Of a stretch of 64,000 bases of DNA, positions 1-44,275 are shown piece after piece. Location: positions 27,819,571-27,883,570 of the forward strand of contig NC_090373.1 of NCBI RefSeq assembly GCF_036365525.1, given 5' to 3'. Below the pieces are notes generated by a model. The model made no database searches. It was not told the DNA's origin and saw only the letters and a list, made by a program, of their open reading frames with translations. The stretch comes from Heterodontus francisci. Taxonomy: Eukaryota. Position 1 is the stretch's first letter. Each line of letters opens with the position of its first letter. A program made the translations under genes and the position numbers.

Positions 1-519
1 ACTTTCATGCCCTCATAATTGCCCTTAAAGTTTAAAATACTAGTCATTGACCTACTCTTCTCTCCCTCAAACTGAGTGTAAAATTCAATCATATTATGAT
101 CGTTGCTGCCTAGGAGCGCCTTCACCATGAGGTCATTAATCAATCCTATCTCGTTGATTCTAATCAAAAACTAGGGGGCAAGTCAGCATTTCTTCATGTC
201 TTCTAAAGAGATGCTTCTGAATTCATTTCCTTCATTGTTACACAAAGAAATGCCTAAACAGTGTTTGCCCCACAGGTAAGGTCAACTGCTCCTTCCAAAG
301 CCAGCCAGGTTCTGCCCTGTCTAGTGACAAAGAATAATTAATGGACTAGTTAACAACCGAGTAAGCGATCTCACTCTCGCTCTTATATGCACATTCCAAA
401 CATCTGTGTGTAAAGATTTTTTGTAACCTCCCCTGTAATTCTTTTGTGCTCCCCTGTAACAGTGTCGCTGGCCGGTGGAAATGATCTATTGCTATTCACC
501 GTTCCTCTGGTTAGGGTCA

Positions 520-3371: not shown

Positions 3372-3920
3372 GTAAAAGCAAAATACTGCAGATGCTGGAA
3401 ATCCGAAATAAAAACAAAGTGCTGGAAATAGCAGGTCAGGCAGCATCTGTGGAGAGAGAAGCAGAGTTAACGTTTCAGATCTGTGACTTTTTATCAAAAC
3501 TGGCAAAGGTTAGAAATGTAAGGCTTTCAGCAAGTGAAAATGAGGAAGAAAGAAGAACAAAAGGGAAGGTGTGTGATAGGGCAGAGGGCAGGAAGGATTA
3601 AATGACAAAGATGTCATGGTACTAAAGACAAAGGGAGTAGTAATAGCCATAGTAAAAGACAAAGCATTTGTCTGGAGAGAATGGCAAGATAATGAACAAG
3701 ATAATGAAAGCAAAAACATAAAAAACAAGTTTGACTTTTTTTTTTAACCATGTGCCAATAAAAATGGCAGTCATGCCCTGAAATTATTGAACTCTCTGTT
3801 GAATCCAGCAGGTTGTAGAGTGCCTAATCGGAAGATGAGGTGCTGTTCCTCCAGCTTGCGTTGATCTTCACTGGAACACTGCATCAGGGTGAGGACAGAA
3901 ATGTGGGTGTGAGAGCAGGG
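3372..3920 (-). mobile_element. Old Penelope-like element 3' fragment (end of GIY-YIG ORF, 3' UTR, tail)
   Basis: Diverged homology to 14683-15350: ORF end ...FNNFRA* near 3770-3790, decayed hammerhead near 3463-3500, tail AAAAGCAAAATACTGCAGATGCTGGAAATC. Confidence 0.8.
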
Positions 3921-4920
3921 TGGTGAATTAATTAATGAAGTGAATTAATGAAAACTTCTGGTGACCAGTTATCATCCTAAGAATGTTTCCAGATCAGAGG
4001 AACAGAACCCTAAGGATGTTCATACTGTTTCCACCAGACCTATCCCTTTGCAAGTAATGGCAGGGGAGGGAGGAATCTGTACTGAAACAAACAATTAGCA
4101 ATGCTAAACAAAAGCAGAATGCAGTGTTGTACTCAGGTCTTGGTTATAAGACCAGGAGTATAATATTTATGACAGAAATTTTATGTCAGAACTATAACAG
4201 AGGTCAGGCCGAATGGAGTATGAATTCAGCTACTAGAGACTGAAGGTTCCAGAGAAACAGCCCACCACAAGACAATTCAGAAGAAGTTCAAAAATACTAG
4301 TCTCCAAAATTATCAAAACCAATAACCAGCCCACTTAGATGGAACACTTCAGAGTTACACAGAGAGATGGAGTAAAGAATGGGAGAGTTAATAAAATAAG
4401 AAACAGGAAAAATTAAAAAGAAATGTTGAAACATTACAATAAATCAAAGTATGAGTAGAGGGGCATTCTCACAACAGACCAGAGCAAAAGCCTGCAACAC
4501 TCCAACTCTAAATGCTAAGGTTCAAAGGGCCTGGCAGGAGAGTGGGATTAGCTGAGTAGCTGTTAGTGATCGCCCAAGGACACAACTGACTGAATGGCCT
4601 CCTTCTGTGCTGTAACCATTCTATGATTTTATAAAAGGCCACCAAGGTGAGAAAAACTCAAGACCTAAACATTAGAGAAGAATGTGACAAAATATAAGAA
4701 ATTGATAAATTTGCAGAATGGGCGTGAGACTGTCAAATTAATTTCAATATAGACAAGTGTGAGGTGGTGCATTTTGGTAGGACAAATAAGGAGACCACAT
4801 ACTGTTTGGAAAATGAGAGTCTAAAAATGAGTAGAGAATAAAGGAATCTAGGGGTACATCAATGGCCTTGCATTGATTATGACAATGTGGGCAGCCTATA
4901 ATTATCAAAAGCATCACTAA

Positions 4921-5335
4921 TTGGCTCAGCCGCGACTCAGTTGGTAACACTCTCGTCTGAGTTAGAAGGCTTGAGTCTCAGTCCAGAGACTTGAGCATAA
5001 AATCCCAGACTGACAATCTGATGCAGTGCCCAGGAAGTGCTGCACTACCTCAGGTGCTGTCTTTTGAATGAGACATTGAAACGAGACCCTGTCTGCCCTC
5101 TCGAGTGGACCTAAAAGATCCCACAGCACTATTTTAAGAACAAGGGAGTTCTCTCTGGTGTCCTGACCAAAATTTATCCCTCAACCAACCTCACTAAAAC
5201 AGATTATCTGGTCACTATCACATTGCAATTTGTGGGAGCTTGTGTGTACAAAAATTGGCTGCAGCATTTCCGATAACACTTCATTGGATGTAAGGCGTTG
5301 TGAAAGGCACTATAGAAATGCAAGTCTTTCTTTTG
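4921..5335 (+). mobile_element. tRNA-headed Deu-domain-type SINE (SacSINE1-like) with L2-type 3' end
   Basis: GGCTCAG...CTCAGTTGGTAACACTCT head; core AAAGATCCCACAGCACTATTT...GGGAGTTCTC...GGTGTCCTG...ATTTATCCCTCAACCAAC; end GTGAAAGGCACTATAGAAATGCAAGTCTTTC. Homologous copies at 47165 and 48637. Confidence 0.7.
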
Positions 5336-5719
5336 TTGCCACCGGCCCCAGTCTATGGCGCGCGTTATTAACACCGTATGCTTCAGGGATAAACATTGGG
5401 GTTAGGGCAAGAACACGCTACTGACAACACTGCAGTCATTAAATATGCCCTTTAAAAAGTGCAGCCGGCCAGCCACGGTTAGGGCTTAAACTAAAGAAAG
5501 AAATTTCGGGTCGGTGAATTAACGGTAACGACCGGAAAATAGCACAGTTGATCCCCGCGCCCTTTGCTTTGAGATCTGAGACTGGGATGAGTGCACTGAG
5601 CCTTAACACTGGCAATCAGGTTAAACCATATTTGGCATCTACAACCAGCACTGATCCGAAGGCAATCATTCTGGGAACTCAAGGACCACTGCCATTCACA
5701 CAGCTGCACAACAACCCCG

Positions 5720-12620
<6,901 letters not shown>

Positions 12621-14508: not shown

Positions 14509-14782
14509 GAATAAAAACAGAAAAGGCTAGAAATACTCAGTAGGCCTGGCAGCATCTGTGGCGAGAGGAACAGCATTACTGTTTCATCCGAATCTTCTCT
14601 TATGATGTTATCTCCAGTCCAGCTATCTTTACAGGGTGAATCAGCACCCACCAAGCTTGGAAAAGAACTGCCAAACATCTAAAATAAAAGCAAAATACTG
14701 CGGATGCTGGAAATCTGAAACAAAAACAAGAAATGCTGGAATCACTCAGCAGGTCTGGCAGCATCTGTGGAAAGAGAAGCAG

Positions 14783-14819
14783 AGTTAACGTTTCGGGTCA
14801 GTGACCCTTCTTCGGAACT
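14783..14819 (-). ncRNA. Minimal type-I hammerhead ribozyme motif (left arm of Penelope insertion)
   Basis: AGTT-CCGAAGA-A-GGGTC ACT GACCC-GAAAC GTT-AACT: stem I AGTT/AACT, core CCGAAGA (U4C variant of CUGANGA), stem II hairpin, GAAA, palindromic stem III AACGTT. Confidence 0.65.
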
Positions 14820-15198
14820 GACAAATATTAGAAAAGTCACAGATTATAAACAAGTGAGGTGGGGGTTGGGCAAGAGATAACAAAGGAGAAGGTGCAGATT
14901 GGACCAGGCCACATAACTGACCAAAAGGTCACGGAGCAAAGGCAAACAATATGTTAATGGTGTGTTGAAAGACAAAGCATTAGTACAGATTAGGTGTGAA
15001 TATACTGAATATTGAACATCAGCAAGTGCAAACCTGAAGAAGAACAACCTGAAAAAAACAGTGGGTAAGCAAACTGAACAAACTAAGATGAAATGAAATA
15101 AATGCAAAAAAAATTGTAAAAAATGTAAAAAGGAATGCAAAAAAAAGGAAGAAAAAATAACTAAAAATGACTAAAAATGAAAGTAAAGTGGGGGGCTG

Positions 15199-16760
15199 TC
15201 ATGCTCTGAAATTATTGAACTCAATGTTCAGTCCGGCAGGCTGTAGTGTGCCTAATCGGTAGATGAGATGCTGTTCCTCGAGCTTGCGTTGATGTTCACT
15301 GGAACACTGCAGCAATCCCAGGACAGAGATGTGAGCATGAGAGCAGGGGGGAGTGTTGAAATGGCAAGCAACCGGAAGCTCAGGGTCCTGCTTGCGGACT
15401 GAGCGGAGATGTTCCGCAAAGCGGTCACCCAGTCTGCGCTTGGTCTCCCCAATGTAGAGGAGACCACACTGTGAGCAGCGAATACAGTATACTACATTGA
15501 AAGAAGTACAAGTAAATCGCTGCTTCACCTGAAAGGAGTGTTTGGGGCCTGGGATAGTGAGGAGAGAGGAGGTAAATGGGCAGGTATTACACCTCCTGCG
15601 ATTGCAAGGGAAGGTGCCCTGGGACGGGGACGAGGTGGTGGGGGTAATGGAGGAGTGGACCAGGGTGTCACGGAGGGAACGATCCCTTCGGAATGCTGAC
15701 AGGGGAAGGGAGGGGAAGATGCGACTGGTAGTGGCATCACGCTGGAGGTGGCGAAAATGGCGGAGGATGATCCTTTGGATATGGAGGCTGGTGGGATGAA
15801 AAGTGAGGACAAGGGGAACCCTGTCACGGTTCTGGGAGGGAGGGGAAGGGGTGAGGGTAGAGGTGCGGGGAATGGGTCGGACACGGTTGAGGGCCCTGTC
15901 AACCACAGTGGGGGGAAATCCTCGGTTGAGGAAAAAGGAGGTCATATCAGAAGCACCGTCATGGAAGGTAGCATCATCAGAGCAGATGCGTCGGAGACGG
16001 AGAAACTGGGAGAATGGAATGGAGTCCTTACAGGAGGTAGGGTGTGAAGAAGTGTAGTCGAGGTAGCTGTGGGAGTCAGTGGGCTTATAATGGATATTGG
16101 TAGACAACCTATCCCCAGAGATGGAGACAGAGAAGTCGAGGAAGGGAAGGGAAGTGTCAGAGATGGACCATGTAAAGGTGAGAGAAGGGTGGAAATTGGA
16201 AGCAAAGTTGATAAAGTTTTCTAGTTCGGGGCGGGAGCAGGAAACGGCACCGATACAGTCATCAATGTACCGGAAAAAGAGTTGGGGGAGGGGGCCTGAG
16301 TAGGACTGGAACAAAGAATGCTCGACATATCCCACAAAAAGACAGGCATAACTAGGACCCATGCGGGTACCCATAGCGACACCTTTTACTTGAAGGAAAT
16401 GCATGGAGTTGAAGGAGAAGTTGTTCAATGTGAGAACAAGTTCAGCCAGGCGGAGGAGGGTGTTGGTGGATGGGAACTGGTTGGGCCTCTGTTCCAGGAA
16501 GAAGCGGAGAGCCCTCAAACCATCCTGGTGGGGGATGGAGGTGTAGAGCGATTGGACGTCCATAGTGAAGAGGAGGCGGTTGGGACCAGGAAACTGGAAA
16601 TTGTCAAAATGACGTAGGGCGTCAGAAGAGTCACGGATGTAGGTGGGAAGAGACTGGACCAGCGGAGAAAAGATAGAGTCTAGATAGGAAGAAATAAGTT
16701 CAGTTGGGCAGGAGCAAGCTGACACAATGGGTCTGCCGGGACAGTCCCGTTTGTGGATTT
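15199..16760 (-). CDS. Penelope-like reverse transcriptase + Cys-rich linker + GIY-YIG endonuclease (5'-truncated, uninterrupted frame)
   Basis: Motifs IHKRDCPGRPIVS, DVQSLYTSIP, GVAMGTRMGPSYA, RYIDD (RT catalytic), FLD, CNRRRCNTC (Neptune-type linker), VVYCIRCSQCGLLYIGET (GIY-YIG), RFAEH, LEEQHLI, GLN. No stops over about 520 codons. Confidence 0.92.
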
Positions 16761-16764
16761 GTGG

Positions 16765-17396
16765 ACCGTGACAGGGTTCCCCTTGTCCTCACTTTTCATC
16801 CCACCAGCCTCCATATCCAAAGGATCATCCTCCGCCATTTTCGCCACCTCCAGCGTGATGCCACTACCAGTCGCATCTTCCCCTCCCTTCCCCTGTCAGC
16901 ATTCCGAAGGGATCGTTCCCTCCGTGACACCCTGGTCCACTCCTCCATTACCCCCACCACCTCGTCCCCGTCCCAGGGCACCTTCCCTTGCAATCGCAGG
17001 AGGTGTAATACCTGCCCATTTACCTCCTCTCTCCTCACTATCCCAGGCCCCAAACACTCCTTTCAGGTGAAGCAGCGATTTACTTGTACTTCTTTCAATG
17101 TAGTATACTGTATTCGCTGCTCACAGTGTGGTCTCCTCTACATTGGGGAGACCAAGCGCAGACTGGGTGACCGCTTTGCGGAACATCTCCGCTCAGTCCG
17201 CAAGCAGGACCCTGAGCTTCCGGTTGCTTGCCATTTCAACACTCCCCCCTGCTCTCATGCTCACATCTCTGTCCTGGGATTGCTGCAGTGTTCCAGTGAA
17301 CATCAACGCAAGCTCGAGGAACAGCATCTCATCTACCGATTAGGCACACTACAGCCTGCCGGACTGAACATTGAGTTCAATAATTTCAGAGCATGA
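16765..17396 (+). mobile_element. Inverted duplicate of the Penelope ORF C-terminus (GIY-YIG part)
   Basis: Translation from RDRVPLVLTFHP to FNNFRA* is identical to the end of the minus-strand ORF. Confidence 0.9.
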
Positions 17397-17776
17397 CAGC
17401 CCCCCACTTTACTTTCATTTTTAGTCATTTTTAGTTATTTTTTCTTCCTTTTTTTTGCATTCCTTTTTACATTTTTTACAATCTTTTTTTGCATTTATTT
17501 CATTTCATCTTAGTTTGTTCAGTTTGCTTACCCACTGTTTTTTTCAGGTTGTTCTTCTTCAGGTTTGCACTTGCTGATGTTCAATATTCAGTATATTCAC
17601 ACCTAATCTGTACTAATGCTTTGTCTTTCAACACACCATTAACATATTGTTTGCCTTTGCTCCGTGACCTTTTGGTCAGTTATGTGGCCTGGTCCAATCT
17701 GCACCTTCTCCTTTGTTATCTCTTGCCCAACCCCCACCTCACTTGTTTATAATCTGTGACTTTTCTAATATTTGTC

Positions 17777-17813
17777 AGTTCCGAAGAAGGGTCACTGACC
17801 CGAAACGTTAACT
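17777..17813 (+). ncRNA. Minimal type-I hammerhead ribozyme motif (right arm of Penelope insertion)
   Basis: Same sequence as 14783-14819, on the FAM89A sense strand. Confidence 0.65.
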
Positions 17814-20784
17814 CTGCTTCTCTTTCCACAGATGCTGCCAGACCTGCTGAGTGATTCCAGCATTTCTTGTTTTTGTGCCAAACATCTAACTTGGTTCTTA
17901 ACCTTGTAATTTATGTACTCAGTAGTGCTAGATTTTTTTTAAAGATTTTACTTTTGTCCATACAATTAATTTTAAGCTAAATTTCAGCCAGTGTTTCCAC
18001 TTTGGGGAGAGTGTAAAAATGTCCAGTTGGCATTGACCAATGCCAAGATGTTTGTATCTGCAGATGCAGACTAAGGTTGTTCCTTGTTTCCCCTTCCCTC
18101 CACCTCCCCAAAAGCGATATTGTCTGATGTCATTGGGCCCTTCTCCACTCATTCCCACTGTCTGAGTGACATAGCAATAAGGATGGAGTGCTGGTCCCTG
18201 CTGCCTTTTCGACTCTTCATCCAGTGCATTTCTCACAGCACAAAGTTGGCTTCCTCAGGCTGTGAGCCAAAGTGTGACGTAACATGTAGAATAATATGGA
18301 GTAGTATGCCCTTGGCAAACAATAGACCTGTTTGCCCAGGAATTTACCTGTGGTAATGACATTGTCACCACATTTATGTTTAGGATTTCCACTGCACGTC
18401 CACCTCACTTCAAAGGATGCTTTAAATGTCAAATTTTTGTCTTGCAAGTTCCTCCACAGCCTCGTCGCACCTTTTCTCTGCGATCTATTCCATTCCTTTT
18501 GATGTCTTTCTCCCGAATCTCTGACTCCAAATTTCATGGCACAGCCTGGAGCTGCTTCAGTCCTACTATCTGGAGCTACCCCCGCCCCCTCCCCCCTCCT
18601 ATATTGCATCTATAGTGTGTAAGTCTTTGGGCTATCTATTCACTGAGATTGGATGCAAGAATGGTGCCATATAAAAAGATAAAAACTTTTTGGAAGCATA
18701 AGGTGTTCTTTATTTTTGTATTACATAAAGAAAAGCTGTATTAATTGTAATTAAATAAGTCTGATCGTTACCAGTGCTCTGTATGTTCGCTTGCTGTGAA
18801 GTAAAACACCAAGTGTTTTCTCGGTCAGCTTTTGAAACAATTGAAAAGGCAAGTGTAGACGTGTGGGAGACATGTGTGAAAGACATGAATATCCAATTCA
18901 GATCACTGGGGGTATTAATGTTAAATCCCTAGGTTAGCCCACCCTGAACATGTGACTGTCTTATGGGAGTGATTAGCACCACTATAACCCAGGAGAATAT
19001 CTAAGATTAAGTTTGTAACCTTTTATTTCTTATTGAACAGAGGTGTTTCCTTGGTTACCCTTCAGTCCTCTGACTGCTTATATATCCAAGGAAGATTGAT
19101 AAATTATGATCAGAGCCTCTTTGAATGACTTCCCTCTCAGCCTAGGGTGCCTGTCGACAGAGCCTCACAATGTGTCCATCTTGAGTTCTACTAACTTATT
19201 TTTAGAACCAGCACTTTCTACAATTGCCTGCACCAATTGTTTCATATCCTCCTTTAGTAGACCTATGTTTCAAGTTGCACCATCGTTTGTAAAATCTGAT
19301 GCTAAGTTTTTAAGACTGTACCATACCTTCATTCTAAAATACCCTTAACTATTTTCACTTGTACACACCTCGTGTCGAAGCTGTTATTATTTCCTTTCGT
19401 ATTCTTTACTCGCCTTTTCTTAGGTATTCCCTTTTAGCCCTTCTAATCTCTCCACCTCCCCTCTAGTTTTTTTTATATTACTCATAATTTTCTTTTTGTA
19501 TTCCTGGTCCTAGTTTTATCATTTTCCCTTAAGTTTTAATTTTAAACTTTCTTTATCCACAGCCTGTAGAAATAAAACTCTTTTCTCCAGCCATCTCTCA
19601 TTTAAAGACTCCCCCATGTTGATTTTGCTGTCTTGTTTAACTTTTCTACTCAGTTAATTTGGCAAGATAAAACTATAAGTTGCATTCATATGGTGCCTTC
19701 AGTTTAGAAAAATGCCCCAAGTTACTTCACAGGCCATGAAAAAACCTGATGCTGAGCAAAGGAGGATAGGTTATGTGGGGTGACCAAAAGCTTGGTTGTG
19801 GACTTCAATTTTAAGGAGGAAAATGAGGTGGAGTCAGTTTGCGAAGGAATTCCAGGGAGTTGGTCCCAGCCAGCAGATGGCCCCTTGGGAAAAGATTGGG
19901 AGATGCACAGGAATCTGGAGTCAAGGGCAGAGTTCTAGTTTGGGGTGATTGTAGGGCTGAAAGAAGTTGGAGAGAAGGAGCGGTATGGTGAAGATCTCTT
20001 ATCTTATTGAACTTTGCCCATTTTCTTGTCCATCCTACATGTCTTTGACTCTTTGATATCCATTTCTATTTTTACATTGAGTCTAACTATATGTTGTTGC
20101 TATTTCTAAATTGGGCTCCATATGCACTAGCCAGTAGGCTGGTATGCCTACTTTGAATGGATGACTGTGGAATCAAACCCTCTTGACTGCAGGAGAATAT
20201 AGAAGCTGAAAAATGAGTGGGATCTTTTGCACTGATATGGCAAATCCCCAGACTGGATCCAGGAAATTCTCCTTGTCCAGCTATGCTCCCTCTGATGGGG
20301 GTAGGGCCATGTTTGGAGTGGATGGAGGTTCCAACCCCAAATAAGGAACTGTAGAAACTGATGAGAAAGCCAAGGATGCAGTCTCATTCTTGGCCCTTCC
20401 TTTATGCTCCTTGGCAAGAGTGTGCTGGAACAGCCATGAATTTTCAGCCTCTGTGTATTTTAGAAAGTGATGATTCTCTTATTTAGATTAGTAATGCTGT
20501 TGACCAATAGTCCAGATCCACCTTAACTATGTTATAGTATAGTTTTCCACCAATGGATGCACCTCTCAGGTTTAGTTTCCCTTCACTTAAAATTGAAACT
20601 ATGCCTCGATTAGATATAAATTTCTTGTGGACAAATCACACGTGCATACATTTACTGTGAATTTTAATTCCCTTTTAGCTTGTGTGGAATTTTAGTGGTC
20701 GTGATACACTAATGGATACAAGTGCAAGTCATTGTGATGCTGGTTTAAAAATTTTGCCTTTTATTTTCTTCCCAAAAACTAAAG

Positions 20785-28319: not shown

Positions 28320-28650
28320 TTTTTAATGTTTGTGCTTGGAGCCAGTGCTGTTCATTCTACAGTCAATTGACACTGTCTCTGTACTAATGCTTTGTCTTTC
28401 ACCACACCATTAACATACCATTTGCCTTTGCTCCATGACATTCTGGTCAGTTATTCTCTGTGACCTTTTCCTATCAACACCTCTTTTGTTATCTCTTGCC
28501 CCAACCCCGCTTTACTTGCTTAAAACCTTTTACATTTCTCATATTTGTCAGTTCTGATGAAGGGTCACTGACCTGAAACGTTAACTCTGCTTCTCTCTCC
28601 ACAGATGCTGCCAGACCTGCTGAGTATTTCCAGCATTTCTTGTTTTTATT
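28320..28650 (+). mobile_element. Older Penelope 3' UTR fragment, tail-less
   Basis: Homologous to 17600-17875; ends at CCAGCATTTCTTGTTTTT. Confidence 0.8.
28550..28586 (+). ncRNA. Hammerhead ribozyme motif with canonical CUGAUGA core
   Basis: AGTT-CTGATGA-A-GGGTC ACT GACCT-GAAAC GTT-AACT. Confidence 0.7.
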
Positions 28651-28934
28651 TAATAAAACCCACATTTTATTGGGATGTTACTTGTAGTCCTGTCAGTCTT
28701 ACAACAGATCACACACCAAAAAGCCAAGTAATATTAGAATGGGCACCGCAGAGCCCAAAGTGTGTGGTCGACATGGGGGGTGGGGGCAACATTATAATTT
28801 CATTTGTTAAGTTTCCTTTGCTTTTTATTATTTGGGTTTCTATTGTTTATGCACTCTAAAAAGGAACCCCTTTTGTTAGATCTTTGGGTTGGTGACCCTG
28901 GAGCAACCTGGTGTCTCCTCATGGGTTTTAATCA

Positions 28935-41761: not shown

Positions 41762-42000
41762 CGCCGATTGGCAGCCAGTCGTCCCGCAGATCCTTTGGAG
41801 AGGAGTGAAGGTGCAGAGGGCGGGCCTGCGAGCAGAGATGCAGTCGGAGAGGGCGAGGAGGAGGAGGAGGAGGAGGAGCTGATTCTGAAGTATGGGGCGA
41901 AGCATGTCATCATGCTCTTTGTGCCCGTCACGCTGTGTATGGCGGTGGTGGTGGTGACGATCAAGTCAGTCAGCTTCTACACGGAGAAGGACGGGCAGCT
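41762..42000 (+). CDS. PSEN2: Presenilin-2 coding exon 2
   Basis: CAG acceptor; ...[47 protein letters not shown]; phase-2 donor GTAAGT. Confidence 0.93.
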
Positions 42001-42653
42001 GTAAGTGTCCCACAAAGCGCCAACTCGGGATTTGAATATTTAAGGATCTCTCTGGCAAACTTTGCACATGTTCATTGTATTTACAGCCCAGAAACAGGCC
42101 ACTCGGCCCAACTGGTCCATGCTGGTGCTTAGCGCCACACAAGCCTCCTCACACCCTCTTCATTTAACCCTATCAGCATATTCTTCTATTCCTTTCTCCC
42201 TCATGTTTATCTAGGTTCCCTTAACATAACATAGAAAATACAGCACAGAACAGGCCCTTCGGCCCACGATGTTGTGCCGATCCTTTGTCCTCTGTCAAGG
42301 ACAATTTAATCTATACCCCATCATTCTCCTTTATCCATATACCTATCTATTCTATTATACTTCAACCACTCCTTGTGGTAGTGAGTTCCATCTTCTCACC
42401 ACTCTCTCAGTAAGGAAGTTTATCCTGAATTATATATTGGATTTATTAGTGACTAAATTGTATTTCTGGCTCTGAGTTTTAGACTCCCCCCAACAAGTGG
42501 AAACATTTCCTTTACATCTACCCTATCAAACCCCTTCATTATCTTTAAAACCTCTATCAGGTCACCCCTCAGACTTGTCTAGATAAAAGACCCCCAGCCT
42601 ATTCAGTCATTCCTGATAGGTCTAACCTCTTAGTCCTGGTACCCTACTTGTAA

Positions 42654-42891
42654 TAAATTAAAAGCAAAATACTGCGGATGCTGGAAATCTGAAACAAAAA
42701 CAAGAAATGCTGGATTCACTCAGCAGGTCTGGCAGCATCTGTGGAAAGAGAAGCAGAGTTAACGTTTCGGGTCAGTGACCCTTCTTCGGAACAGTTCCGA
42801 AGAAGGGTCACTGACCCGAAACGTTAACTCTGCTTCTCTTTCCACAGATGCTGCCAGACCTGCTGAGTGAATCCAGCATTTCTTGTTTTTG
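42654..42891. mobile_element. 238-bp palindromic non-coding Penelope derivative (two inverted hammerhead-bearing 3' ends)
   Basis: Perfect 98-bp arms 42695-42792 and 42794-42891 around one central A; about 40-nt tail on the left only; TSD TACCCTACTTGTAA at 42640-42653 and 42892-42905. Confidence 0.9.
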
Positions 42892-44275
42892 TACCCTACT
42901 TGTAAATTTGTTTCTGCACCTTTTGCAGTGCATCTGTATTATTTTTATTATATGGAGACCAGAACTGAGCACAGTGCTCAAACTGTGGTCTAACCAGGTT
43001 TAATACAAGTTTAATTTTTTTAATGACACTGTGGCAACCCAGTGTAATCCTTTTGAATTTGTTACAAAAGGCAAACCTATTTCCCTTGTCAATAGTGATT
43101 AAAAGATATTGTGTGAAACACTGTCCGATCATACAGGCTCTATCTGAGGAGAGATTCATGATGAAGTGCAATGATTTTTAAATGTTACCAGCTGCAAGTT
43201 CCCTTGAAGATCCCAGCCTGGGGTGAGCCACTGTAATCCTTATAGATTCGATAGAAATGCCAGAGGTTTGGAGATGTACTATTGTAGTAACTCATTGTGT
43301 TTAGGTGACTGATCTGGGGGGGGGGGGGGGAGCGGGGTGCGGGGTGGCATTTGGAGGGGGCCGATAACAATTACTAACAATTAGTCCCTACCTATGAATC
43401 TAGGTTGGAGTTGGAACCTGATGGGTGGAGAAAGTGGAAGAGTTTCAGGGACCCGAGTGATCCAAGAACAGGTTCTCAAGGCCCCAATAGGACAGATGGA
43501 GTCTTGTGGAACAGAGTCCAGGGCATATACAACTGCTCATTTCAAATGGAATCTTTCCTCAGAGCTGAGAGGGACTGTCAGTCTGAACCCTCTCAGGAAC
43601 AGCTCCAGTTTTAGAGTCTCGCAGTCCTACAAAATTTTGACTGTATAAAAAGATAGTCCCTGCTCCAGAGTCTTTACTGGGAAACTATTCAAGATATTGC
43701 GCTTGATACTTCCGAAAGACTCCCTAAATCTGCCATGTATAAGAAGATTGTTCACCCATTTCTTACACAGGTTAACCCTTTCATTACACTTCATCCAGAG
43801 GAAGTCTTACTCAATGATTAGCTGATTAATCTGCTGGTGTTAGTAGAAGATAGCACAAGTTTTGCCAGTTTAGATCTTTCATTACAACAACTTACATTTA
43901 TGTAGCACTTTTAATATCGTAAAACATCTATGAATCTGTAGATATATCTATCATTCTATCACTGCTAGCGAGGCCCTGAGCTTTGGAATTCTCTCCTTAA
44001 ACCTCTCTACCTCTCTTTCCTTTAAGATGCTCCTGAAAGCCGACCTTTTTACTGTTAAGGTGATATTAGCATAGGTAATAAATAAAACTTGTGTGGCTTG
44101 GTGTCGCATTTTGTTTGCTAACGTTCGTGTGAAGCACCTTGAAACGTTTTATTATGTTAAAGGCGCTGTATAAATGCAAGTTGTTGTTATTGCTGCAGGG
44201 ATACCTGACACCAATTGTAATTACTGTGGATGAATTAAACTCGATTAACTTCTGTTCCCACTTTTTCCTCAACAG

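What the first reader, a model, noticed from the sequence alone, without database searches (positions are those of the whole stretch)
42640..42905. A 238-bp perfect-hairpin insertion made only of two back-to-back hammerhead-bearing Penelope 3' ends
Seen: in a PSEN2 intron, 42695-42792 is the exact reverse complement of 42794-42891 with a 1-nt centre, flanked by a clean 14-bp TSD. Each arm is the last 98 nt of the Penelope family at 14683-17875. The fold-back point falls at the 5' edge of the hammerhead motif, so each strand carries a core (CCGAAGA, stem II, GAAACGTT) and no coding sequence is left. Established: Penelope-like elements carry minimal hammerheads with palindromic stem III that are proposed to work as dimers. 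Inference: this is either an extreme truncation product of the element's integration pathway or a non-autonomous, MITE-looking but RNA-mobilised mini-element. It would form dsRNA in PSEN2 pre-mRNA and could extrude a cruciform in DNA.
Basis: partly seen in the sequence, partly recalled or inferred. Interest (0 to 1): 0.85.

Follow-up and report, generated by a model that had tools for sequence, protein, structure and literature searches.

The report
Penelope stubs mark its RNA start
This 238-base hairpin is one of thousands of tiny, independently made insertions of a Penelope jumping gene whose two halves stop at the same base, likely the capped start of the element's RNA, so these scraps would map where its RNA begins and how it gets copied into DNA.

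Summary
The hairpin is real (99-bp inverted repeat, 14-15-bp duplication, presenilin intron) but lopsided: 139-nt arm with the known Penelope 'tail', 99-nt arm. It is neither a singleton nor a MITE-like family. The genome holds 1,772 such head-to-head joints at the hammerhead's 5' edge against 22 just upstream; 39 of 100 consecutive arms end within -4..+7; raw reads of two other samples show the same step. Junctions, haplotypes, tail side and flanks all vary, so copies arose independently. The arms are the first 98/139 nt of a 3,290-bp tandem unit. The stop is not the predicted ribozyme cut (+33). It sits on an initiator-like A, 29 nt after a TATA-like box, with excess non-template G (34 of 49 versus 6 of 24). 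Best reading (0.6): a reverse-transcriptase dimer primes both target strands at its two internal start sites on the 5' leader of an uncut, capped RNA, runs off the end, and the cDNAs are joined. The start site is inferred; no RNA 5' ends were seen. The architecture is published; I found no paper on this boundary. The scan noted similar stubs and this edge in other genomes.

The parts
42640..42653 (+). Target-site duplication, left copy (14 nt; 15 with G42639)
   Evidence: the two flanks continue one older repeat across the site
42654..42694 (-). One-sided Penelope 'tail' (about +99 to +139), between the two inferred reverse-transcription start sites
   Evidence: long arm ends +130..+140, short arm at most +105 in nearly all of 49 sibling loci; loose read ends at +98 and +134..+137
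42654..42792 (-). Long arm: positions +2 to about +139 of the element's leader
   Evidence: 98.6% to 14680-14818
42757..42792 (-). Minimal hammerhead-like motif of the long arm (lacks A+1, so 3-bp stem I)
   Evidence: sequence; pattern of PMC4209133; activity untested
42793..42793 (+). Centre base = A(+1) of the short arm, the inferred RNA start; equals 17777 in the sibling element
42793..42891 (+). Short arm: positions +1 to +99 of the leader
   Evidence: 99% to 17777-17875
42793..42829 (+). Minimal hammerhead-like motif: stem I 42793-96/42826-29, core 42797-803 (U4C), extra A 42804, stem II 42805-17, GAAA 42818-21, palindromic ACGT; predicted cut after 42825
   Evidence: sequence; stems paired in most of 62 arms
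42892..42905 (+). Target-site duplication, right copy
14683..17875 (.). Sibling insertion with the same long-plus-short head-to-head plan but arms of about 2.07 kb and 1.1 kb; 14-nt duplication 14669-14682 / 17876-17889
17748..17781 (+). TATA-like box (17748-17752, -29) and initiator-like TCAGTTC (17775-17781) around +1 in the sibling; absent from the hairpin itself
   Evidence: sequence; column counts in 40 read-through arms; consensus motifs recalled; function inferred
42001..44275 (+). Presenilin (PSEN2-type) intron hosting the insertion
   Evidence: PF01080 exons at 41888 and 44276 onward with GT/AG ends

Best explanation
The hairpin is a dead, independently made Penelope insertion in which two reverse transcriptases likely primed on the two nicked target strands, copied the same short 5' leader of the element's RNA from two start points (+98 and +139), likely ran off its capped 5' end at +1, and had their products joined head to head. 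Shown: asymmetry, 14-17-nt duplications, a sharp shared stop at +1..+3, independent origin, and that +1..+139 leads the 3,290-bp unit. Taken from published work: two internal start sites bracketing the tail, both strands cut and extended, a predicted protein dimer, uncleaved RNA as substrate (PMC11167929); a promoter in the pLTR (PMC2377424, PMC3846280). Inferred: +1 is the transcription start; a transcript from there holds the priming site twice (5' leader and 3' repeat), so priming on the first copy gives 100/140-nt stubs and on the second gives long copies; the extra G comes from copying the cap; the hammerhead is uncut in the template.
For: 1,772 head-to-head joints within 30 nt at +1 vs 22 at -60..-75. 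Of 100 consecutive arms: 14 end at +8..+38, 39 at -4..+7, 7 at -34..-5, 9 at -535..-35, 31 run further; end rate per nt 0.041 vs 0.005 and 0.0004 (P<1e-22). Raw DNA reads of two other samples: depth falls 18,700 to 6,900 across +1 in X21, loose ends at +2, +1, -1, +98, +134..137. Base before the stop is G in 22 of 28 ends at +2 and 12 of 21 at +1, vs 6 of 24 upstream truncations (pooled P 4.5e-4); G58:T29:C13 in the first 100 listed of 4,904; none of 22 G cases is a read-through mutant. Full-length L1 insertions carry an extra G from the cap (PMC11702581). 18 of 49 junction gaps re-copy +4..+20 (shuffles 5.6, max 13), as expected of a polymerase slipping at a template end. Pyrimidines at -2/-1 in 39 and 40 of 40 and TATAA/TAAAA at -29 across subfamilies. 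Stubs 53: read-through 47 of 100. Single-arm stubs end at either +98 or +135-140, so both are real start points. Arms of one insertion share haplotype (0.72 vs 2.22 differences) yet L043 has two different templates. Older CUGAUGA subfamily shows the same class, 217 sites.
Against: No RNA 5' end was observed; the two RNA-like runs are contigs and cannot show a start. The G excess is not significant in every subset: +1 ends alone P 0.21, head-to-head set 17 of 33 vs 6 of 24 P 0.058, and only 3 usable cases in the unbiased set; the control is small. G before +2 is as common as G before +1, and a start on G after A is a poor Pol II start. Ends spread over +1 (7), +2 (7), +3 (10), +4..+7 (7). The same bases also read as branch point, T-rich tract and YAG acceptor. 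The model does not itself explain why stem I begins exactly at +1. 30 of 49 single-arm stubs show no duplication. The 100-arm sample is one 7.4-Mb end of contig C1.
Confidence: 0.6

Rival explanations
1. The RNA does end at +1, but by processing: a 5'-to-3' nuclease trims a longer transcript back to the edge of the protein-bound hammerhead fold; twin priming and joining are as in the main model.
For: Explains directly why the stop equals the 5' edge of stem I; protein-assisted folding of a PLE hammerhead is reported (PMC11167929); extra G could be untemplated C added by the enzyme.
Against: Stem I is only 4 A/U-rich pairs; conserved TATA-like and initiator-like motifs at the right spacing and G excess fit a cap without further assumptions.
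Confidence: 0.15
2. The template is long and the polymerase stalls at a folded or dimeric hammerhead, or long cDNAs are trimmed to the near-palindromes at +3..+9 and +13..+25 when they anneal.
For: 17 of 39 peak ends lie at +3..+7; joints centred on the +3..+9 and stem II palindromes occur.
Against: About two thirds of peak ends are single arms against host DNA, where no partner cDNA exists; many ends include A+1 and a non-template G; a polymerase moving 3' to 5' has already opened stem I in cis.
Confidence: 0.1
3. A+1/G+2 is a 3' splice acceptor; the templates are spliced RNAs and the boundary is the exon edge.
For: In D. virilis the PLE intron ends at the 5' end of helix I (PMC4209133); TNAC at -20..-17, T-rich tract and YAG are conserved; +3 is the commonest single end.
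Against: No upstream exon is carried along: 14 of 49 single-arm stubs have the duplication within 12 nt of the stop, 5 had a distant match (mostly other repeats), 30 none within 0.6-1.4 kb; no shared upstream sequence among 81 ends; no matching splice joint among the 15 of 137 joints shown.
Confidence: 0.07
4. One cDNA folds back and primes on itself (self-priming, proposed on an antisense template in PMC3846280), making the second arm.
For: Arms usually share haplotype; some joints are asymmetric as fold-back predicts (L151, L167, L174).
Against: Joints where both arms reach +1/+2 with a 1-nt centre leave no loop; the short arm stops at +98, itself an independent start point; L043 has arms from two subfamilies. 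It may account for a minority of asymmetric joints and does not explain the +1 stop.
Confidence: 0.05
5. A dedicated non-autonomous, MITE-looking hairpin family that copies itself as a unit.
For: 151 copies share this exact junction; uniform size about 230-245 nt.
Against: 37 junction types in 49 loci; tail on either arm 17:13, several haplotypes, 0 of 435 flank pairs shared; same junction recurs in an older subfamily (9 of 50 listed); hairpins lack the upstream promoter-like motifs and the sequence downstream of the start sites that the Anolis enzyme needs.
Confidence: 0.03

Closest known systems
Insertion units of endonuclease-bearing Penelope-like elements: pLTR, adjacent inverted 5'-truncated copy, one-sided 30-40-bp tail (PMC3846280, PMC8557442; passages read)
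   Same: Head-to-head inverted arms, tail on one side only, target duplication, partial-tandem parent, hammerhead in the pLTR, TATA- and initiator-like motifs noted in a pLTR.
   Different: Here no ORF is left and about 40% of all arms stop within 11 nt at one site; the passages read describe truncation as variable, and explain inverted joints by self-priming on antisense RNA.
Poseidon of Anolis carolinensis in vitro (PMC11167929; abstract, main text and part of methods read; 3 supplement files searched, no hits)
   Same: Two internal start sites bracketing the tail, both target strands extended, predicted dimer, hammerhead cleavage not needed, no reads ending at the cut.
   Different: That paper does not address 5' ends of genomic copies or hairpin stubs; there the start sites lie inside the ORF, here in a leader ahead of an ATG near +173.
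Minimal type I hammerheads of PLEs (PMC4209133; results and discussion read)
   Same: Short helix I, extra base after position 9, G10.1-C11.1, palindromic 15.2-16.2; dual motifs on opposite strands 100-700 bp apart are mentioned for Schistosoma.
   Different: U4C core in the young subfamily, 5-bp helix II; the proposed role (cleavage makes the template ends) is not what the genomic stops show.
L1 twin priming and cap-derived extra G (PMC11702581; passages read)
   Same: Two primers on the two target strands, discrete duplications, internal end-joining, extra G at full-length 5' joints.
   Different: In L1 the two cDNAs copy different, adjoining parts of the RNA; here both copy the same 100 nt, giving a perfect palindrome.
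Non-LTR retrozymes (10.64898/2026.07.22.740005; parts 1-2 of 5 read)
   Same: Short, non-coding, hammerhead-bearing, PLE pLTR-derived.
   Different: Retrozymes are head-to-tail tandems with two or more same-strand hammerheads; this is a head-to-head single insertion.

Membership tests
EN+ Penelope-like element insertion | Parent with one ORF, RT followed by GIY-YIG endonuclease | tested here: inconclusive
   916-aa open frame in tandem unit; RVT_1 E 6e-6, below curated cut-off, no GIY-YIG model hit; no PDB relative; GIY-YIG-type motif read by eye at the C-terminus (recalled motif)
EN+ Penelope-like element insertion | Partial-tandem arrangement forming pLTRs | tested here: met
   Three +1 sites 3,290 bp apart in L110, upstream copy 5'-truncated
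EN+ Penelope-like element insertion | Inverted 5'-truncated copy with a 30-40-bp tail on one side only | tested here: met
   41-nt tail here; long+short plan in about 46 of 49 siblings
EN+ Penelope-like element insertion | Target-site duplication | tested here: met
   14-15 nt here; 14-17 nt in 27 of 30 same-junction copies
Minimal PLE hammerhead | Helix I, helix II with G10.1-C11.1, extra base after A9, GAAA, palindromic 15.2-16.2 | tested here: met
   pairs kept in 55-60 of 62 arms
Minimal PLE hammerhead | CUGANGA core | tested here: not met
   U4 is C in this copy and in 44 of 62 arms; U in 16; no Rfam hit at gathering score
Minimal PLE hammerhead | Self-cleavage as a dimer | not testable with these tools
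   Needs in vitro transcription; the paper on dimer cleavage of variants (PMC5785218) is not held
MITE or dedicated non-autonomous family | Copies descend from one master, sharing a fixed internal joint and polarity | tested here: not met
MITE or dedicated non-autonomous family | Inverted repeats reach both termini; short fixed duplication | tested here: not met
   41 unpaired terminal nt; duplications 14-17 nt of any sequence
Non-LTR retrozyme | Two or more same-strand hammerhead units in tandem | tested here: not met
   One motif per strand, head to head
RNA polymerase II start site | Capped RNA 5' ends at the position | not testable with these tools
   No raw RNA run listed; only indirect signs

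The most novel reading that the evidence does not exclude
Penelope's hammerhead is the first 37 nt of its capped mRNA, and every integration starts with a reverse-transcriptase dimer on that 5' leader, making a retrovirus-like 'strong-stop' cDNA; long copies arise when this cDNA jumps to the 3' repeat, and the roughly 30,000 stubs and several thousand hairpins in this genome are failed jumps. That would explain pLTRs, tails and inverted repeats with one mechanism. One copy (L191) shows such a jump from +2 to an internal GGG on the same strand.
Probability: 0.2. Interest if true: 0.75.

Novelty: new variant of a known kind. Interest (0 to 1): 0.5.

Why it matters
How Penelope-like elements make their inverted repeats and what their hammerheads do are open questions. 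This genome holds tens of thousands of natural end-points that say the template usually ends at the ribozyme's 5' edge, not at its cut, and that two cDNAs start from one site pair. That gives exact, cheap tests (5' RACE at one base; a 140-nt template in the existing in vitro assay). It also means a large vertebrate genome has been seeded with thousands of perfect 100-bp hairpins, many in introns. The single PSEN2 copy is of no special importance on present evidence.

Tried and rejected
Rfam at gathering score: no hit in the window. Hammerhead cut as the breakpoint: rejected, only 2 of 100 arm ends at +30..+38; the anchor began at +39, so shorter arms were not sampled. A second, apparently fixed junction (about 22 of the first 50 of 2,358 hits) looked like a true hairpin family; 20 fetched copies share more than 1 kb of flanks, so it is an old hairpin riding in another repeat. 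A-to-G point mutation as source of the G excess: rejected, 0 of 22 G cases read through. G-T wobble joining as source of G at +1: not supported (3 of 9 at template-A control sites) but sample small. No RNA holder listed for the locus; depth of RNA-like contigs was not used as evidence, as no DNA-contig control was laid. PDB search with the ORF: nothing. Paper searches found no description of a start-site peak, cap G or hairpin stubs in PLEs; the library lacks most subscription papers, Repbase reports and PMC5785218, and bioRxiv supplements are closed, so absence from print is not established. Sequence look-up in earlier scan findings: nothing. Rows dropped: 11 of 50 arm pairs with short or gapped arms; 7 read-through and 2 duplicate loci of 30 and 2 read-through of 30 before the G counts; 3 of 27 control ends with template G.

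Full report
Observation. The inverted repeat is exact: arms 42694-42792 and 42794-42892, 99 nt, one base between them, inside a 14-15-nt duplication. The insertion (42654-42891) is asymmetric: the left arm has 41 more bases that match the start of the sibling element at 14680-14818. That sibling is built the same way with kilobase arms and its own 14-nt duplication. The two flanks continue one older repeat across the site. Presenilin exons with GT/AG ends bracket it on the + strand; the PSEN2 call is from recalled residues. I number positions from the centre base A42793 = +1 (17777 in the sibling).

The parent. A natural array on contig C1 has three +1 sites 3,290 bp apart and an open frame of 916 aa starting near +173, with a weak RVT_1 match (E 6e-6, under the cut-off) and a GIY-YIG-type end read by eye. 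So +1..+139 is both what ends an insertion and what leads the next unit. A minimal hammerhead-like motif fills +1..+37 on the sense strand, with the predicted cut after +33; its stems are kept in most of 62 arms, but position 4 of the core is C in 44 and U in 16. Rfam does not score it.

Not a singleton. The 6.0-Gb genome has 83,860 exact matches to an anchor at +39..+71, 1,772 head-to-head joints with both arms reaching +3 or further within 30 nt, and 22 for the same design 60-75 nt upstream. An older subfamily with the canonical core adds 217. For the first 100 anchored arms on C1, 5' ends were: 14 at +8..+38, 39 at -4..+7, 7 at -34..-5, 9 at -535..-35, 31 beyond. The rate per base is 0.041 in the peak against 0.005 and 0.0004 upstream (P<1e-22 against the higher). 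Raw DNA reads from two other samples, laid on the tandem unit, show the same: in X21 depth falls from about 18,700 to 6,900 across +1, and the listed loose ends include +2 (X21), +1 and -1 (X22), +98 and +134..+137. Scaling 39% and 7 stub pairs per 7.4 Mb gives roughly 30,000 stubs and 5,000-6,000 hairpins; this is a rough extrapolation from one region.

Not a family. In the 49 fetched joints (first 50 rows, two overlapping) the long arm ends near +137 in about 46 and the short arm never passes +105, but there are 37 different junction sequences. The window's exact junction occurs 151 times; in the 30 fetched, the tail is on the +2 arm in 17 and on the +1 arm in 13, several parent haplotypes occur, 27 have their own 14-17-nt duplication, and 0 of 435 pairs share flanks. 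For contrast, a junction that really was propagated proved to be an old hairpin inside a larger repeat, with shared flanks.

What sets the boundary. It is not the predicted ribozyme cut: one end at +33 and one at +36 of 100. This agrees with the Anolis data, where cleavage was not needed and no reads ended at the cut (PMC11167929). Three signs point to a physical, probably capped, RNA end. First, context: pyrimidines at -2/-1, A at +1 in 36 of 40, and TATAA or TAAAA at -29 across subfamilies; PLE promoters lie in the pLTR (PMC2377424; PMC3846280). Second, a non-template G before the stop in 22 of 28 ends at +2 and 12 of 21 at +1, against 6 of 24 upstream truncations (pooled P 4.5e-4), though subsets are weaker (P 0.21 for +1 alone; 17 of 33, P 0.058, for head-to-head joints). 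L1 shows such a G at full-length joints (PMC11702581). Third, 18 of 49 junction gaps re-copy +4..+20 (shuffled mean 5.6, maximum 13), as from slippage at a template end. Against: no RNA 5' end could be seen, a start at G+2 is unusual, and the same bases read as a splice acceptor, which is what sits at helix I in D. virilis (PMC4209133). No upstream exon is carried in the stubs, which weighs against splicing.

Mechanism. The Anolis enzyme cuts and extends both target strands, starts at two internal sites that bracket the tail, and is a predicted dimer. Here single-arm stubs end at +98 or at +135-140, so both are start points. A transcript from +1 through the ORF into the next repeat has this site pair twice; priming on the first pair yields 98- and 139-nt cDNAs that run off at +1, priming on the second yields long copies. 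Stubs and read-through arms are 53:47, and paired arms are mostly concordant (7 stub-stub, 3 near-stub, 1 mixed, 3 long-long; hand count), as if both enzymes work at one site pair. Arms of one insertion differ by 0.72 bases on average against 2.22 between insertions (39 of 50 pairs usable), so usually one source; L043 has two subfamily templates, which self-priming cannot give. The cDNA ends are then joined bluntly or through the leader's small palindromes. Joining enzymes are not identified.

Consequences at this locus. The pre-mRNA would hold a 98-bp duplex that buries its single sense hammerhead, so in-cis dimer cleavage is not expected. Editing, small RNAs and cruciform formation are untested.

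Novelty. The architecture is published (PMC3846280, PMC8557442) and the two start sites are published. Ten searches of the held library found no account of a base-sharp 5' boundary, cap-like G or leader-primed stubs in PLEs; coverage is incomplete. After forming this reading I found scan notes on other genomes describing similar stubs as ordinary and one describing the same stem I edge; they are unchecked and not independent support. Verdict: a real, common product of a known kind, with a boundary that offers a direct handle on the Penelope life cycle. Interest 0.5.

Noticed in passing
L214-L233 (for example G000:C1:31231081): An old Penelope hairpin lacking the CUGAUGA core sits inside a larger repeat of more than 1 kb (about 85-92% identical copies) and was amplified with it; about 22 of the first 50 of 2,358 hits. 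The host repeat was not identified.
   Followed up: partly
L019, L036, L044, L048, L253, L266: In several hairpins the short arm stops at +36..+41, the 3' edge of hammerhead stem I, instead of +98: a possible third start point or use of a ribozyme-related RNA end.
   Followed up: no
L068, L052, L003, L039: Short direct re-copies of the first 8-15 nt (GTTCCGAA-type stutters) at the 5' joint, reminiscent of repeat addition by template realignment in telomerase, the sister group of these enzymes.
   Followed up: partly
L191: A copy jumps from +2 to a GGG about 800 nt upstream on the same strand, consistent with a cDNA ending in extra C switching template.
   Followed up: partly
L110-L111, G000:C1:23.22-23.23 Mb: Natural tandem array with two identical, open 916-aa units and a truncated upstream unit; likely a recent or active source.
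   Followed up: partly
window 42833-42847 (+) and the leader to +172: The leader holds several acceptor-like pyrimidine tracts ending in AG; one lies in sense orientation in the presenilin intron, though inside the predicted duplex.
   Followed up: no
L088/L089, L182, L001, L018: A shoulder of 5' ends at -10..-34 (7 of 100 arms), often in both arms of one insertion; may be minor upstream starts.
   Followed up: no
window 3373-3923, 14510-14585, 28346-28651: Older, 76-93% identical Penelope fragments of related subfamilies.
   Followed up: no
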